Sequence record: PZ445533.1
Reading direction: 5' to 3' (one strand)
Length of the DNA: 48,914 nucleotides
DNA from: a phage
The notes below the pieces were generated by a model, which saw only the letters and a program-made list of their open reading frames with translations, was not told the DNA's origin and ran no database searches. The translations under genes were made by a program, and so were the position numbers. Positions 22,998 through 27,523 of this stretch are shown here, one piece after another (position 1 is the first letter of the stretch; each line of letters starts with the position of its first letter).

Positions 22998-23450
22998 ATG
23001 CACGTTATTACAGGTGAGATTCGAAAAGAGCCAAAAGTAAAGCAAATGCCTAACGGCAGCACGCTATATGTTATTGAGCTTTCCGAACGATATAAAGATC
23101 GTGAAGGAAATTGGCAGTATACAAACTATGTGTTTTTCTTTAACGCGAAAACAGACGGCCTGAATGGTTGGTATGCTGAGGCGTTCCAGGTAGGCAAGGT
23201 TATTTCTGTTTCCTGCGATACCTTGCGAGTTGAAACGCGAGAATACAACGGAAAGATTTACAGCACCGTGCAGCCTGGCGGATTTGCAAACTTGCTATTT
23301 AGCCAGAGAGGTGAAAGCCAGCAACAATATCAGCAGCGAACGCAAGGAGGATGGGGGCAACCACAACAGCAACAGCAACAAAATACTCAACAGCAGCCGC
23401 AGCAAAGCAATCAGCCTCCGATTGACTTTGACGACGATATACCATTCTGA
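22998..23450 (+). CDS. ssb: Single-stranded DNA-binding protein
   Basis: OB-fold-like N-terminus, Gln-rich linker, acidic C-terminal tail DFDDDIPF. Confidence 0.8.
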   Translation: MHVITGEIRKEPKVKQMPNGSTLYVIELSERYKDREGNWQYTNYVFFFNAKTDGLNGWYAEAFQVGKVISVSCDTLRVETREYNGKIYSTVQPGGFANLLFSQRGESQQQYQQRTQGGWGQPQQQQQQNTQQQPQQSNQPPIDFDDDIPF

Positions 23451-23455
23451 TAACA

Positions 23456-23486
23456 AAAAGCCCCGCATATGCGGGGCATTTTTTAG
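23456..23486. terminator. Bidirectional terminator between ssb (+) and fibre-like gene (-)
   Basis: AAAAAG CCCCGCAT ATGCGGGG CATTTTTT. Confidence 0.65.
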
Positions 23487-24220
23487 TCTAACGTGGTTGG
23501 TTTGTTTACCAGTGCCGCTACAACCGCTTTTAGCTCGTCAATTTCTTTTCTCATCTCATCGTTTTCCGCTTTCAATTTCTTAACTTGGTGAATCAGTGGA
23601 ACAGTGAGGCGGTCATACATAACGCCTTCCGCCACCATGCCATTACTTGAAGCAATGGCAGGATCTTCTCCTTCTTGCAGCGGTCGCCAGTGAACGTATT
23701 CCGGCGCAATTTCTCCAACCTCTTCCGCGATTAGCCCGTACCATCCCCAATCTTTACGGTCGCTTTCACAAGTTGACCGATACCACACAGGACGCATTTC
23801 AAGCATCAGATCCGCATATTCATCAATAACCGATTCTACGCTGCTCTTATAACGAGAAGAGGAAGTGGAGCGTAAAACTTGCGACACTCCAGCATTTGGA
23901 TCAAGCCATAAGTTTGCTGATTGAGCGGTTGTGTTAATATTAAATAAATAAAATGCATCGTTACCAGTTAGGGGGTAAAAACTCCCACTATACCTTCCGC
24001 TATCCAACTTGGATGATAGATCAGTTTGTTTTAGATACGGTTTCAACTTATTGTCAACATCAGCAGTTGATGCTTTTCCTGCAACATCCTGTTTTAGTGT
24101 CGAAACATCACTTTTCAGCTTCGTTATATCACCAGGAATAGTAGCAACATCCTGTTTTAGTGTTGAAACGTCATTTTTCAGCTTCGTTATATCACTAGGT
24201 ATAACAGTGACTGTAGCCAT
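23483..24220 (-). CDS. Tail fibre-like protein with C-terminal S74-type intramolecular chaperone domain
   Basis: 245 aa; N-terminal 21-aa tandem repeat (ITKLK.DVSTLKQDVA), C-terminal GLIAEEVGEIAPEYV segment typical of peptidase S74 IMC domains. Confidence 0.55.
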   Translation of the reverse strand: MATVTVIPSDITKLKNDVSTLKQDVATIPGDITKLKSDVSTLKQDVAGKASTADVDNKLKPYLKQTDLSSKLDSGRYSGSFYPLTGNDAFYLFNINTTAQSANLWLDPNAGVSQVLRSTSSSRYKSSVESVIDEYADLMLEMRPVWYRSTCESDRKDWGWYGLIAEEVGEIAPEYVHWRPLQEGEDPAIASSNGMVAEGVMYDRLTVPLIHQVKKLKAENDEMRKEIDELKAVVAALVNKPTTLD

Positions 24221-24232
24221 TTTCCTAACTCC

Positions 24233-24511
24233 TTAAGCCCATCCTCTAATAGACTGATCTAACTCAACCACGTATCCATTAAAAATTACGGCATCAAACT
24301 TATCATCAATGATTCGCACATTAACGAAATAGCCGTCGTTCTTTCGCGCAATCTCCTCGCCATCGTCAGATCGTGCAATTACTGTATAAGTATTGCCGAT
24401 TACATCGAGCAGGATTGCATCCTGAATGGATTCGTTATCATCCCAATTAATTTTTCCTAAAAAGGCCGAAAACTCGGCCTTGTCTGAAAATTTTAATGTT
24501 AAATCACGCAT
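24233..24511 (-). CDS. Hypothetical protein between fibre genes
   Basis: 92 aa; TAATG overlap with upstream fibre gene. Confidence 0.45.
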   Translation of the reverse strand: MRDLTLKFSDKAEFSAFLGKINWDDNESIQDAILLDVIGNTYTVIARSDDGEEIARKNDGYFVNVRIIDDKFDAVIFNGYVVELDQSIRGWA

Positions 24512-26487
24512 TAAACAATTTCCCCCAATTGATGATCTGTTAGTGCCTTGTGCCATATACGGAAGTTTCTAACGTGCCCGAAAAGATGACGTTCTCCCGT
24601 AGTTGTTTGTCCGCCAATCCTTATAGTAGCCGTTGATACTATATATCTCCATTCCGTTTTTGTTTCGCTTGATATTCTGGCATTACTTACACAGCAATTA
24701 TTGTAATCACTCTTTACTCTCATTCCCACGATCATCTTTTTTAGTTTTGCATTCTCGTAAACCCTTCTGTTTGATCCACCTATATCGCAATAAGGGAATC
24801 CGTCATTATCGCCTTCGGCAGACCCGAAAGCAAGAATAATTGCCGCTCCGGTTTGATGGCCGCCTGTATCAAAAACACGTGGCGCTGCGTTTGGCGTTAT
24901 ACTCCAGTTTTTATGAGCTTCCACAAGCAATGTAAACGGCAAATTGTAAAGGTTGTTTTTTATTGGCAATGCAACCATATCGCTTGCCCGTGTTACTGGA
25001 GTATCTTCTGTAATAATAAAGGATGAAGCGCACGCCCCACCTTCAACTTGAGGTGTCGCAATATAAATATAATCATCCGCACCAGTGCCAACTCCTTTTG
25101 CTGGGGCATACTGAACCATTCCACCTATCATATTTTCTGTATCAAGTGCCTTAATTGTCGCCTCAAAAAAGATCCATTTGCTTGCTTCATCTTTAACAGC
25201 CCTTGCAGTAATACGATTTGCAGCGCCGCCAGTTTTTTCAATTGATAAATCTGTCAGATTTACGTAAGCATCACCCAAAAATGCATAAGCAGATCCATCG
25301 TAGTTTTCAAATCGTAATCGGCATCTTAAATTTGGAGTCCCACTTTGCGCCCTGCATGATATGGTTACATACTTTTCATTTCCTGTTACATCAAAACCTC
25401 TACTGCCGGAAACGGTTACTATGTTAATCGATGAAGTTTGCCCTACCATTTCTGGTTTTAATGTAAATTTTGCGTACTGGAATCCGAAATTATCCACACC
25501 TGATCTATCTAAGATCATATTTGATGACTTGTTCCATTTTGAAGGATTGACGCTATTTATAAGAAGGTTTGTTCTTTGCCCCTCAATTAGCAGACCATCC
25601 TTTTCAAATCTAGGTTCATCAATAGCAGCATTAGTAAGCACCCCAGACTTATTAATGTAAGTAGCGGCTGATGCTCGTTTAAACTTAACTATCTTGTCAC
25701 CTGGCATCGTGATCTCATCGTCACCTATAACAATCTTTTTGTATGACGGCGAGAATCCGGTAATCATATCCAGGGAGTCATTAAATGGTATCCACACGTC
25801 CGGCAACGGTTGCAATAAGTCCTTGTAAGGTTCTGCCGCCTGCTTTGCGTATTCCTCCGCCTGATCTCGCGCACTTTCAGCTCCTGCCTTTGCAGTGTTC
25901 GCAGCGTCACGCGCGGATTCAGCGCCAGACTTTGCTGCTTCAGCGCCAGTCTTTGCAGTGTTTGCAGCGTCGCGCGCGGATTCAGCGGCAGCCTTTGCAG
26001 TATCAGCACCTTTCTTGCTATTCGCTGCATTTGTTGCGCTTGTCTTCGCGTTATTCTCGCTGGTTTTAGCTGCCTGCTGGCTTGCTGCTGCTGCGTCAGC
26101 ATTTGTCTTTACGTCTTCCTGGATCTTCTGTAGCTTATCCCAATCAAAATCCTTGATGATCTCAATAAATCCAGCAAACTCCGATTCCTTCCCCTGGTAA
26201 TAACGCAGCGTTTCCGCTACGTCTTGCGCAAGACCGTCAACCGTTAACGAGTCATGAAGCAAGATCAGGTAATTTGTCTTCTGGACTACCGCGCCGCCAG
26301 TAGTAATTGCGCGAATGCTTGTATCGCTAATCACTTCTGTAATCACAGCAGCTTGCAAAGGTTGAGCAAGAAAGAAAATAGTTGCGCCTGGGCGAATCAA
26401 TGTTAATTGCTCACGCCATTTTGTACCGTAACCAGTTACATAACCTTGCGCGTCCATAGACGCTTGGCCTTGTCTGTAAATCGCCAT
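24511..26487 (-). CDS. Tail fibre / receptor-binding protein
   Basis: 658 aa from ATG 26487 (AGGAGG RBS); Ala/Lys-rich repeated coiled region (AESARDAANTAK x3), C-terminal lectin/LamG-like region. Confidence 0.65.
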   Translation of the reverse strand: MAIYRQGQASMDAQGYVTGYGTKWREQLTLIRPGATIFFLAQPLQAAVITEVISDTSIRAITTGGAVVQKTNYLILLHDSLTVDGLAQDVAETLRYYQGKESEFAGFIEIIKDFDWDKLQKIQEDVKTNADAAAASQQAAKTSENNAKTSATNAANSKKGADTAKAAAESARDAANTAKTGAEAAKSGAESARDAANTAKAGAESARDQAEEYAKQAAEPYKDLLQPLPDVWIPFNDSLDMITGFSPSYKKIVIGDDEITMPGDKIVKFKRASAATYINKSGVLTNAAIDEPRFEKDGLLIEGQRTNLLINSVNPSKWNKSSNMILDRSGVDNFGFQYAKFTLKPEMVGQTSSINIVTVSGSRGFDVTGNEKYVTISCRAQSGTPNLRCRLRFENYDGSAYAFLGDAYVNLTDLSIEKTGGAANRITARAVKDEASKWIFFEATIKALDTENMIGGMVQYAPAKGVGTGADDYIYIATPQVEGGACASSFIITEDTPVTRASDMVALPIKNNLYNLPFTLLVEAHKNWSITPNAAPRVFDTGGHQTGAAIILAFGSAEGDNDGFPYCDIGGSNRRVYENAKLKKMIVGMRVKSDYNNCCVSNARISSETKTEWRYIVSTATIRIGGQTTTGERHLFGHVRNFRIWHKALTDHQLGEIV

Positions 26488-26502
26488 TTGTAAAATCCTC
26501 CT

Positions 26503-26522
26503 AAATAGCACTTTTTGCTAAT
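26503..26522 (+). repeat. Isolated copy of 21-bp box upstream of tail fibre gene (opposite orientation)
   Basis: AAATAGCACTTTTTGCTAAT located 10 nt beyond fibre gene RBS. Confidence 0.5.
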
Positions 26523-26555
26523 GACAATGCAGATAATAGCATTTTCAAGTGCAAA

Positions 26556-26580
26556 AAAAAACCCCGCATAAGCGGGGCAA
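26556..26580. terminator. Terminator after primase gene (minus strand), A/T flanks both sides
   Basis: A9 CCCCGC ATAA GCGGGG. Confidence 0.6.
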
Positions 26581-26593
26581 TACTAGCGGAGTT

Positions 26594-27523
26594 TTATAGC
26601 AGTGATTCGGGCTTGTAGAGTTTTCTTTCTACTCCCTGTTTAAAATTATCGTTAACAGGCATCATTATGTCAAGCCCTCTTTCCTCTGCCGCGATTATCA
26701 CATCACGATCATCTTTCCGGCAGACTACGCGCATTCTTCTTTCTCCTTTATATCTATGCGCAACCATTTCAAGATTTGAAGGAGTAAAACAGGCCCACAC
26801 CTCTTGACCAGTTGATAAATGAACATGCTGAGAATCAACCCAATCAAGGCACAAATAGATCGTCTTATCTGTACTACCTGTTTTAACAACAGATCCTCGC
26901 GTGTAGTCGCGAGCTAAAAACCAATCCTTTCCATCCTCATCAATGAAAAGCACGTTACACATTTCATCATCCAGCCCGTCATCATGCACCAGGTGACAAG
27001 GTAGCGCGTGAATGTATCGACCATCCTTGACGCCGCAATCATAATGACAATCTTCCGGCGGATATATCCCCTCATAAACGCTTAAAGGTGTGCGATCGAA
27101 TTTTAATGTTTTTGCCATCACTTTTTCGCAACATTCATGACTTGCCTGTTTCCCGAACGAGTAACCAGAAGAACGCGAAGCGCGTTTGTTTGCTCTGATC
27201 CTGTAATCTTGTGGCACTTTTCCGAGGAAGCGGCCCAAAATGTTGATGGCCTCGCTGTAAGGTTCGCCAGTTAATTTCATTAACCAACCGATCCCCGTGT
27301 CGTTGCCGCACACGTTGCAGATCGCGCCGCCGTCGCCCTCTTCATTTAGCTTATCAGTCCATCTAAAACGATCCTTACCGCCGCAGTGTGGGCAAGGTTG
27401 ATGCTTTTTGTTGAAAACATCGCTATGCAGTCCGCAAATGCTTTGTAGTGCTTCACGCCATAACCCCTTCATATATGGCAAAACATCTTCTTTCTGATAG
27501 GTCATAAAGTTTTCAGTATTCAT
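26594..27523 (-). CDS. DNA primase (zinc-binding domain)
   Basis: CPHCGG...CNVCG zinc-finger motif; start ATG 27523 chosen because it follows a terminator hairpin and GAGG RBS. Confidence 0.6.
   Translation of the reverse strand: MNTENFMTYQKEDVLPYMKGLWREALQSICGLHSDVFNKKHQPCPHCGGKDRFRWTDKLNEEGDGGAICNVCGNDTGIGWLMKLTGEPYSEAINILGRFLGKVPQDYRIRANKRASRSSGYSFGKQASHECCEKVMAKTLKFDRTPLSVYEGIYPPEDCHYDCGVKDGRYIHALPCHLVHDDGLDDEMCNVLFIDEDGKDWFLARDYTRGSVVKTGSTDKTIYLCLDWVDSQHVHLSTGQEVWACFTPSNLEMVAHRYKGERRMRVVCRKDDRDVIIAAEERGLDIMMPVNDNFKQGVERKLYKPESLL

What the first reader, a model, noticed from the sequence alone, without database searches (positions are those of the whole stretch)
23483..26487. Three-gene fibre locus on the opposite strand with internal tandem repeats and an S74-type chaperone domain on a separate short protein
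The 658-aa fibre has a triply repeated Ala/Lys-rich coiled segment (AESARDAANTAK) and a lectin-like C-terminus. It is followed by a 92-aa ORF and then a 245-aa protein carrying a 21-aa perfect tandem repeat at the DNA level (two 63-bp units near 24079-24200) and a C-terminal S74-like intramolecular chaperone domain. IMC domains are usually the C-terminus of long fibres, so this split or short arrangement is unusual and the repeats could mediate length or host-range variation.
Basis: partly seen in the sequence, partly recalled or inferred. Interest (0 to 1): 0.5.

Follow-up and report, generated by a model that had tools for sequence, protein, structure and literature searches.

The report
Two-part side tail fibre locus
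This is the side-tail-fibre operon of a T1-like coliphage, and the odd short protein with a "chaperone" domain is most likely a miniature second fibre piece that plugs onto the main fibre, a widespread and already sketched arrangement rather than an oddity.

Summary
The three genes exist as described, on the minus strand: fibre (658 aa), a 92-aa ORF and a 245-aa ORF. The window is a Warwickvirus-like phage (Drexlerviridae).

- **Repeats:** both are imperfect. The two 63-bp units share 54-56 of 63 nt and 18 of 21 aa.
- **C-terminal domain of the 245-aa protein:** it is a genuine S74 intramolecular chaperone. It just passes the Pfam threshold, has the Ser120/Lys125 dyad, and its model matches MyRF ICA and endosialidase chaperone structures.
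- **Not unusual:** the layout [lectin-headed fibre, overlapping ~92-aa gene, third gene] recurs in T5-like phages, Queuovirinae, Dhillonvirus, Hanrivervirus and lambdoid prophages.
- **Shared N-terminus:** all third genes start with M-[AV]-T-x-T-x-I-P-x-D-I-T-x-L-K although the rest of each protein differs. In IrisVonRoten that gene is the published distal fibre.
- **Single-chain allele:** a sister Warwickvirus contig carries one 1187-aa fibre at this locus, ending in the same tip and chaperone.
- **Best reading (inferred):** a minimal, self-chaperoned distal fibre subunit.
- **Selection and length:** intact copies are under purifying selection (dN/dS 0.20). Coil length varies in whole heptads (245, 231 or 224 aa).
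- **Loss of function:** 11 of about 42 relatives carry one of 7 inactivating mutations, always in this gene.

Verdict: a new member of a known kind, of modest interest.

The parts
26561..26578 (-). Terminator hairpin after the primase gene; upstream boundary of the fibre transcription unit
   Evidence: GCCCCGCTTATGCGGGGT followed by a T-run; sequence shown
24511..26487 (-). Proximal lateral tail fibre gene (658 aa). N-terminal virion anchor at aa 1-~105; Ala-rich trimeric coiled coil at aa ~126-222; GTA-spike-fibre-like domain at aa 300-501; LamG/ConA-like lectin head at aa ~505-658
   Evidence: phrog_1419 tail protein, E 2.3e-240; aa 1-175 match the N-terminus of the Klebsiella phage depolymerase 7VYV/7LZJ, E 2e-53; AGGAGG RBS
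25876..26001 (-). Two imperfect 63-bp (21-aa, three-heptad) units in the fibre coiled coil
   Evidence: 54/63 nt identical; copy number invariant in 16 relatives
24233..24511 (-). 92-aa fibre-coupled accessory protein (phrog_1361, function unknown). Its ATG overlaps the fibre stop codon by 1 nt
   Evidence: tblastn finds it in 178 phage records; in the rows listed with annotation it nearly always lies directly after a fibre gene. AF2 pLDDT 89.7; no informative structural neighbour
23483..24220 (-). 245-aa gene: proposed minimal distal fibre subunit with a C-terminal intramolecular chaperone
24176..24220 (-). Codons 1-15 (MATVTVIPSDITKLK): conserved N-terminal motif, proposed docking peptide
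   Evidence: M-[AV]-T-x-T-x-I-P-x-D-I-T-x-L-K heads otherwise unrelated third-gene products in 8 lineages
24077..24202 (-). Two imperfect 63-bp units encoding six heptads of an Lpp-like trimeric coiled coil (DITKLKN DVSTLKQ DVATIPG, twice)
   Evidence: (PF04728 LPP, 29.4 bits against 29.1); relatives have 6, 4 or 3 heptads
23864..24004 (-). Codons ~73-119: pre-chaperone tip, the most variable part among orthologues and poorly modelled as a monomer
   Evidence: dN/dS 0.31; pLDDT below 50 for residues 62-103 and 108-114
23971..23981 (-). T5-A-C5 tract. The C-run gains one C (C5 to C6) in three relatives. It is also the right edge of the cassette that differs from the single-chain allele
23486..23863 (-). 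Codons 120-245: S74 intramolecular chaperone domain. Predicted self-cleavage before Ser120, with Lys125 as the general base
   Evidence: dN/dS 0.09
23460..23477 (.). Bidirectional terminator hairpin shared with the convergent SSB gene; downstream boundary of the unit

Best explanation
The locus is a self-contained late operon encoding a two-part lateral (side) tail fibre of a Warwickvirus-like T1-family phage.

- **Gene 1, proximal fibre:** an N-terminal anchor shared by Drexlerviridae fibres and depolymerases, an Ala-rich trimeric coiled coil, a GTA-spike-fibre-like domain and a LamG/ConA-like lectin head.
- **Gene 2, 92-aa protein:** translationally coupled to gene 1 and co-inherited with the lectin head. 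I infer that it is an assembly factor or connector for that head.
- **Gene 3, 245-aa protein:** a miniature distal fibre made of four parts.
  - A 15-residue N-terminal docking peptide.
  - Six heptads of trimeric coiled coil.
  - A ~45-residue tip.
  - A C-terminal S74 intramolecular chaperone.
- **Proposed action of gene 3:** the chaperone trimerises the chain and templates folding of the tip. It then cuts itself off before Ser120 using the Ser120-Lys125 dyad. The mature 119-residue trimer hangs on the proximal fibre as a second, small receptor-binding tip.

**Shown here:** gene layout, domain identities, the conserved dyad, purifying selection, and homology with both two-part and single-chain fibres.

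**Inferred:** trimerisation, self-cleavage, physical docking, receptor binding, and the role of the 92-aa protein.
For: **The chaperone domain is real**
- Pfam S74 hit just above its cut-off.
- K125 is invariant and S120 is at least 90% conserved in 65 homologues. The S-x4-K spacing matches the endosialidase dyad, from my own knowledge of Schulz et al. 2010.
- A profile of the family hits MyRF ICA 7DC3 and the phage S16 long-tail-fibre distal subunit 6F45 in the PDB.
- The AF2 model of residues 120-240 is confident. Its best structural matches are 7DC3, 3GW6 and 3GUD.

**The gene layout recurs**
- The order [lectin-headed fibre, overlapping ~92-aa gene, third gene 9-13 nt later] is found in IrisVonRoten, HMD-P4, KurtStettler, JenP2, KarlBarth, KarlJaspers, PhiR49_1 and an E. 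coli prophage.
- All these third-gene products share the N-terminal motif while the rest of each protein differs.
- In 8 further genomes (7 T5-like, plus JenP2) the motif starts right after the 92-aa gene.
- IrisVonRoten Gp24, which carries the motif, is the published distal fibre said to attach to a proximal fibre with a galectin-like domain (PMC11990801).
- That proximal fibre is 71.6% identical to the window fibre over its C-terminal 418 aa.

**A single-chain allele exists**
- Sister contig L009 encodes one 1187-aa fibre with the same anchor and the same tip plus IMC. The cassette edges fall at window 26186 and 23980.

**The gene is functional where intact**
- dN/dS is 0.20 overall and 0.09 in the IMC.
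- Indels in the coil are whole heptads.
- The gene has a good RBS and a terminator.
Against: - There is no direct evidence that the protein is in virions, is cleaved, or contacts the proximal fibre.
- The tip region is modelled with very low confidence as a monomer.
- The gene is much more conserved among Warwickviruses (dS ~0.09) than the proximal fibre's middle and C-terminal domains (dS 0.5-1.3). That is not what one expects of a host-range-determining tip.
- 11 of about 42 relatives carry inactivating mutations in it. It is therefore dispensable at least on K-12.
- Phage 21 has the fibre and the 92-aa gene but no third gene.
- BASEL annotators call homologues "putative lateral tail fiber chaperone".
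Confidence: 0.62

Rival explanations
1. The 245-aa protein is a separately encoded, trans-acting assembly chaperone for the 658-aa fibre and is not part of the virion.
For: - Databases name it "chaperone of endosialidase" or "putative lateral tail fiber chaperone".
- It sits downstream of a fibre gene, where Tfa-type chaperones usually lie.
- It is better conserved than the fibre head.
Against: - S74 chaperones are known to act on the polypeptide they are part of (my knowledge: endoNF, T5 pb1, GA-1 gp12).
- The cleavage dyad is conserved.
- The same tip plus IMC is the C-terminus of a 1187-aa fibre in a sister phage.
- Its N-terminal motif is shared with bona fide long distal fibres such as IrisVonRoten Gp24.
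- Lectin-headed fibres exist without it in phage 21.
- There is no Tfa/Caudo_TAP-type hit.
Confidence: 0.12
2. The ORF is a functionless leftover: the 3' end of an ancestral long fibre gene, stranded when a foreign fibre cassette recombined into the locus.
For: - The cassette edge lies inside the ORF, at window 23980.
- There are 7 distinct inactivating mutations in 11 relatives.
Against: - dN/dS is 0.20, and 0.09 in the IMC, among intact copies.
- It has its own strong RBS.
- Length changes preserve the heptad register.
- The N-terminal 50 aa are not orphan sequence. They are homologous to the N-termini of distal fibres in other families.
- Short homologues are maintained in thousands of prophage copies.
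Confidence: 0.08
3. It is an independent short fibre that binds elsewhere on the tail, for example the tail tip or baseplate region, rather than on the proximal fibre.
For: - Small coiled-coil plus S74 fibres form a recognised structural class (TC7 in PMC12143355).
- Nothing here shows contact with the 658-aa fibre.
Against: - The motif-bearing gene was found only directly after the 92-aa gene, in morphologically different phages: T1-like, T5-like, lambdoid and Queuovirinae.
- Those phages share the lectin-headed fibre and the 92-aa gene rather than their tail-tip proteins.
Confidence: 0.12

Closest known systems
IrisVonRoten (Bas32, Tequintavirus) lateral tail fibre Gp22-Gp23-Gp24 (Humolli et al. 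2025, PMC11990801)
   Same: - Same gene order and spacing.
- The proximal fibre's C-terminal 418 aa are 71.6% identical to the window fibre.
- There is a homologous 92-aa gene.
- The third protein starts with the same 15-aa motif and ends in an S74 chaperone.
   Different: - Gp24 is 574 aa, with a Gp12-like RBD1 and a T5-like RBD2 ("T-shaped").
- The window protein is 245 aa, with only a short coil and a ~45-aa tip.
- The virion anchor is T5-type in IrisVonRoten and Drexlerviridae-type here.
Branched LtfA/LtfB L-shaped fibres of T5-like phages DT57C and DT571/2 (Golomidova 2016, PMC4728585; PMC10713586)
   Same: - A two-protein lateral fibre in which the second protein is attached through the first.
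- S74 chaperone ends.
- Dispensable on rough E. coli, with mutants arising during culture on rough strains.
- Tandem repeat copy number changes next to the junction.
   Different: - A different docking system (phiEco32 gp14/gp15-like).
- Both Ltf proteins carry S74 domains.
- No 92-aa gene is described.
- No sequence similarity to the window proteins was found.
Phage T5 pb1 tip plus intramolecular chaperone, and the K1F endosialidase / GA-1 gp12 chaperones (PDB 3GW6, 3GUD; Pfam PF13884)
   Same: C-terminal S74 domain with a Ser-Lys dyad and a long C-terminal helix; structural match.
   Different: - In those proteins the domain ends a long fibre or spike (>1000 aa in T5 pb1).
- Here the cargo is only 119 aa.
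- phmmer found no direct sequence match to these chains.
Single-chain Warwickvirus fibre allele (IMG/VR UViG_3300045988_036915, locus L009; phrog_3299)
   Same: Same locus, same anchor (DNA 95%), same tip plus IMC (66% aa; DNA 88% from window 23980 onward).
   Different: One 1187-aa polypeptide with no lectin head, no 92-aa gene and no docking motif.

Membership tests
Peptidase_S74 / intramolecular chaperone (IMC, ICA) domain | Profile match to PF13884 at or above the gathering score | tested here: met
   22.4 bits against a cut-off of 22.0 (marginal), residues 120-176. Most homologues carry precomputed PF13884.
Peptidase_S74 / intramolecular chaperone (IMC, ICA) domain | Ser-x4-Lys catalytic dyad at the N-terminal edge of the domain | tested here: met
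   S120 at least 90% conserved and K125 invariant in 65 sequences. The spacing is as in endoNF S911/K916 (my knowledge of Schulz et al. 2010).
Peptidase_S74 / intramolecular chaperone (IMC, ICA) domain | Characteristic fold ending in a long helix that forms a trimeric coiled coil | tested here: met
   pLDDT 81-97 for residues 120-240, helix 206-238.: 7DC3 E 2e-5 (TM-target 0.65), then 3GW6 and 3GUD.
Peptidase_S74 / intramolecular chaperone (IMC, ICA) domain | Autoproteolytic release after trimer folding | not testable with these tools
   Needs SDS-PAGE or mass spectrometry of the expressed protein or of virions.
Two-part (proximal plus distal) lateral tail fibre of IrisVonRoten type | Gene order: lectin-headed fibre, overlapping ~92-aa gene, distal-fibre gene 9-13 nt later | tested here: met
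Two-part (proximal plus distal) lateral tail fibre of IrisVonRoten type | Shared N-terminal motif on the distal subunit | tested here: met
   M-[AV]-T-x-T-x-I-P-x-D-I-T-x-L-K in 8 lineages
Two-part (proximal plus distal) lateral tail fibre of IrisVonRoten type | Physical attachment of the distal trimer to the proximal fibre in the virion | not testable with these tools
   Only monomer prediction was available. The published model for IrisVonRoten is itself an AlphaFold-Multimer prediction (PMC11990801).
Separate tail fibre assembly chaperones (Tfa/Caudo_TAP, gp38, gp57A types) | Sequence or fold similarity of the 92-aa or 245-aa protein to these families | tested here: not met
LamG / ConA-like lectin domain (fibre C-terminus) | Match to PF13385 Laminin_G_3 | tested here: inconclusive
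   The window protein scores 14.9-17.4 bits against a cut-off of 27.6. It is still the top family in 12 of 12 homologues (best E 4.4e-6). A PDB profile search found nothing. Homologues are described as galectin-like or lectin-like in PMC11990801 and PMC12143355.
GTA head-spike-fibre domain (NCBIfam NF048003) | Profile match above the curated cut-off | tested here: met
   59.2 bits against 36, aa 300-501.: RcGTA Rcc01080 6TB9, E 1.3e-5.

The most novel reading that the evidence does not exclude
The 92-aa protein and the 15-residue N-terminal motif may form a so-far undescribed universal socket-and-plug. It would let unrelated distal receptor-binding fibres, from 119-aa stubs to 574-aa T-shaped fibres, be hung on lectin-headed proximal fibres across T1-like, T5-like, lambdoid, Dhillonvirus and Queuovirinae phages. 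The distal gene may in addition behave as an on/off contingency locus, given the recurrent C5-to-C6 slippage and recurrent nonsense mutations. That would let phage populations hedge between O-antigen-bearing and rough hosts.
Probability: 0.22. Interest if true: 0.6.

Novelty: new member of a known kind. Interest (0 to 1): 0.3.

Why it matters
- **Annotation:** many phage and prophage genomes label this protein \"chaperone of endosialidase\", \"putative lateral tail fiber chaperone\" or \"hypothetical\". Recognising it as a probable distal fibre subunit corrects those labels. It also identifies a second candidate receptor-binding element in Warwickvirus-type phages.
- **Engineering:** the conserved docking motif, together with the 92-aa partner, marks a natural swap point for host-range engineering.
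- **Phage collections:** the frequent knock-outs in K-12-derived isolates warn that collections made on rough strains may have lost part of their adsorption apparatus.

Tried and rejected
- **phmmer of the 245-aa protein against the PDB** gave only coiled-coil noise. A profile was needed to see the IMC relatives.
- **A profile of the fibre C-terminal domain against the PDB** gave nothing.
- **A scan of IMG/VR with the 245-aa protein** returned only 3 loci, so relatives were fetched one by one from GenBank instead.
- **Fibre repeat as a variable-length element:** rejected, since no copy-number change was seen in 16 relatives.
- **Broken copies as sequencing artefacts:** rejected as a general explanation. 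Three of the seven lesions are nonsense substitutions, and the C5-to-C6 insertion in AV105 is flanked within 10 nt by haplotype-specific polymorphisms.
- **DT57C LtfA/LtfB** is analogous in principle but uses a different, non-homologous docking system.
Full report
**What the window is.** Megablast of 23400-26600 finds 92 phage records. The best are Escherichia phages tuinn, Tuinin, swan01 and tunus at 96-98% identity, all Drexlerviridae, Tempevirinae, Warwickvirus. The locus lies between the recombination/SSB genes on the plus strand and the primase on the minus strand, as in those phages.

**Checking the observation.**
- Three minus-strand ORFs are present.
  - Fibre: 26487..24511, 658 aa. 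The ATG is preceded by AGGAGG 8 nt upstream, so it is preferred over the GTG at 26511.
  - 92-aa ORF: 24511..24233. Its ATG shares one base with the fibre stop codon.
  - 245-aa ORF: 24220..23483, with AAGGAG 8 nt upstream.
- Two nearly identical GC-rich hairpins followed by T-runs bracket the unit, at 26561-26578 and 23460-23477.
- Tandem Repeats Finder reports two 63-bp arrays: 24081-24203 (91% matches) and 25876-25998 (88%).
- In the best coding register the short-protein units share 54/63 nt and 18/21 aa, so the repeat is not perfect.
- AESARDAANTAK occurs exactly twice, with a truncated third copy.

**The fibre.**
- Residues 1-175 match the N-terminus of a Klebsiella phage depolymerase (7VYV/7LZJ, E 2e-53). 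This is the shared Drexlerviridae anchor.
- Residues ~126-222 form 13 Ala-initiated heptads.
- Residues 300-501 are a GTA head-spike-fibre domain (NCBIfam 59.2 bits against 36; 6TB9 E 1.3e-5).
- The C-terminal ~155 aa give only a sub-threshold Laminin_G_3 hit. That family is nevertheless the top Pfam family for 12 of 12 diverse homologues, best E 4.4e-6.
- Homologous fibres are described as carrying a galectin-like domain (IrisVonRoten Gp22, PMC11990801) or a lectin-like head (Vequintavirus EmilHeitz, PMC12143355).
- So "lectin-like" is reasonable.

**The 245-aa protein.**
- Pfam gives Peptidase_S74 just above threshold, plus an Lpp-type trimeric coiled coil at the N-terminus.
- PHROG profiles of long tail fibres match it at their C-termini. 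phrog_3299 matches at positions 1147-1384 of 1385, E 2.8e-87.
- In an alignment of 65 homologues K125 is invariant and S120 is at least 90% conserved. This is the S-x4-K dyad of intramolecular chaperones.
- A profile of the family hits MyRF ICA (7DC3) and the phage S16 long-tail-fibre distal subunit (6F45) in the PDB.
- AlphaFold2 models residues 120-240 with pLDDT 81-97. The best PDB matches are 7DC3 (E 2e-5), then the endosialidase (3GW6) and GA-1 (3GUD) chaperones.
- Residues 11-47, 52-63 and 65-72 are helical. Residues 62-114 are poorly modelled, as expected for a tip that only folds as an interdigitated trimer.

**Why a short S74 protein is not odd.**
- The same three-gene layout recurs in many lineages: Tequintavirus IrisVonRoten and HMD-P4, Seuratvirus KurtStettler, Nonagvirus JenP2, Dhillonvirus KarlBarth, Hanrivervirus KarlJaspers, lambdoid PhiR49_1 and an E. 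coli prophage.
- The third-gene products range from 225 to 574 aa (in KarlBarth the gene is split into 98- and 196-aa ORFs) and are otherwise unrelated. All begin M-[AV]-T-x-T-x-I-P-x-D-I-T-x-L-K.
- tblastn with such an N-terminus finds 66 enterobacterial phage records. In 8 of them (7 T5-like genomes and JenP2) that could be cross-checked, the motif starts 10-13 nt after the 92-aa gene.
- The Bacillus hits in that search are heptad-only similarity.
- In IrisVonRoten the motif-bearing Gp24 is the published T-shaped distal fibre, said to attach to the proximal fibre (PMC11990801).
- The 92-aa gene follows lectin-headed fibres in 178 phage records. It is present in phage 21 and in rV5-like phages that lack the third gene, so it belongs with the proximal fibre.
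- Its AF2 model is confident (pLDDT 89.7) but has no informative structural neighbour.

**Split versus single chain.**
- A sister Warwickvirus contig (L009) has, between the same primase and SSB genes, one 1187-aa fibre.
- Its first ~100 aa match the window fibre (DNA 95% up to window 26186).
- Its last ~190 aa match residues ~55-245 of the short protein (66% aa over the BLASTP alignment; DNA 88% from window 23980 onward).
- The window allele therefore differs by a 2.2-kb cassette. The cassette brings the fibre body, the lectin head, the 92-aa gene and the docking-peptide/coil start of the third gene, joined in frame to the resident tip plus chaperone.
- This explains how an IMC comes to sit on a short protein.

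**Is the gene functional?**
- Among intact orthologues dN/dS is 0.20: 0.09 in the chaperone and 0.31 in the coil and tip.
- The coil occurs in three lengths, 6, 4 or 3 heptads, giving 245, 231 or 224 aa. All indels are multiples of 21 nt.
- The fibre's Ala-rich repeat never varies in copy number.
- However, 7 distinct inactivating mutations occur in 11 of about 42 distinct relatives:
  - C5 to C6 in orkinos, JLBYU19 and AV105, on two haplotype backgrounds.
  - +CC in JLBYU10.
  - -G in ityhuna.
  - -A in brachmannus.
  - G159* in Phunderstruck.
  - E167* in tuinn.
  - Y175* in EC195, EC125 and JLBYU07.
- The fibre gene is intact in all 16 relatives whose sequence I translated, and the 92-aa gene is annotated full-length in every annotated genome examined.
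- If the lesions fell at random over the three genes, seeing all seven in the 738-nt gene would have a probability of about 5e-5 (my arithmetic, (738/2994)^7).
- Most of these phages were isolated on O-antigen-less K-12. Lateral-fibre mutants are known to accumulate on rough strains (PMC4728585).
- This fits a dispensable, perhaps counter-selected, distal receptor-binding element.

**Mechanism proposed.** The chaperone trimerises the chain, folds the ~45-aa tip, and cleaves itself off before Ser120. The mature 119-aa trimer is a coiled coil about 9 nm long plus the tip. It docks by its N-terminal peptide on the lectin-headed proximal fibre, possibly through the 92-aa protein. It then provides a second glycan-binding site. 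Only the domain identities, conservation and context are shown here; the rest is inference.

**Rivals.**
- *Trans-acting chaperone.* This is the database annotation. It is disfavoured by the single-chain allele, the motif shared with real fibres, and the cis mode of action of the family.
- *Dead remnant.* It is disfavoured by the purifying selection, the heptad-preserving indels and the wide conservation.
- *Attachment elsewhere on the tail.* It is disfavoured by the strict linkage to the 92-aa gene across different tail types.

**Verdict.** The interpretation of unusualness is not supported. This is a new, minimal member of a known two-part lateral-fibre organisation. Three side observations are modestly new:
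- The conserved docking motif.
- The single-chain versus split alleles at one locus.
- The selective loss of the distal gene.

Noticed in passing
window 23483-24220 compared with L001, L011-L017, L028, L029: The third gene alone is knocked out in 11 of about 42 related genomes by 7 different mutations: 4 frameshifts at short homopolymers and 3 nonsense codons, all three inside the chaperone domain. The two upstream fibre genes stay intact. C5-to-C6 and Y175* each occur on two haplotype backgrounds.
   Followed up: partly
window 23971-23981: The T5-A-C5 tract is both the recurrent frameshift site and the right-hand edge of the cassette that distinguishes the split allele from the single-chain allele. 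A preprint (PMC12633550) reports that Warwickvirus has the highest homopolymer density among BASEL genera and proposes phage contingency loci.
   Followed up: partly
L009 1615-5178 (IMG/VR UViG_3300045988_036915); L010 matched the query identically but its ORF was not examined: A sister Warwickvirus carries a single 1187-aa fibre at this locus, with the same anchor and the same tip plus chaperone. It has no lectin head and no 92-aa gene.
   Followed up: yes
L003 5289-6821 (KurtStettler bas22_0024): The third-gene product is 510 aa. After most of the S74 domain the sequence leaves the homologous HMD-P4 protein and continues for ~200 aa rich in Gly, Gln and Cys, ending in CC. This could be a fusion or a frameshift artefact.
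   Followed up: no
L026 3770-4649 (KarlBarth gp30/gp31): In this Dhillonvirus the motif-bearing third gene is annotated as two overlapping ORFs of 98 and 196 aa, with no S74 domain evident. It may be another split or broken distal fibre.
   Followed up: no
L006 4292-4585 (phage 21), L007 4716-5009 (PhiR49_1), L031 2957-3244: Lambdoid versions of the locus end with a conserved ~95-97-aa predicted membrane protein. In phage 21 it follows the 92-aa gene directly; in PhiR49_1 and the prophage it follows the short S74 protein. It is absent from the window.
   Followed up: no
window 26561-26578 and 23460-23477: The two terminator hairpins bracketing the fibre operon are almost the same sequence, GCCCCGC(T/A)TATGCGGGG. 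Together they could delimit a mobile late-gene cassette inside the replication/recombination module.
   Followed up: no
window 24233-24511: The 92-aa protein has a confidently predicted alpha/beta fold (pLDDT 89.7) and 27 invariant residues across 33 homologues. It has no characterised structural or sequence relative, and its role (assembly factor or connector) is open.
   Followed up: partly
window 23364-23380: A short CAACAG repeat encodes the poly-Gln stretch near the C-terminus of the SSB gene on the plus strand. It is ordinary low-complexity sequence.
   Followed up: no
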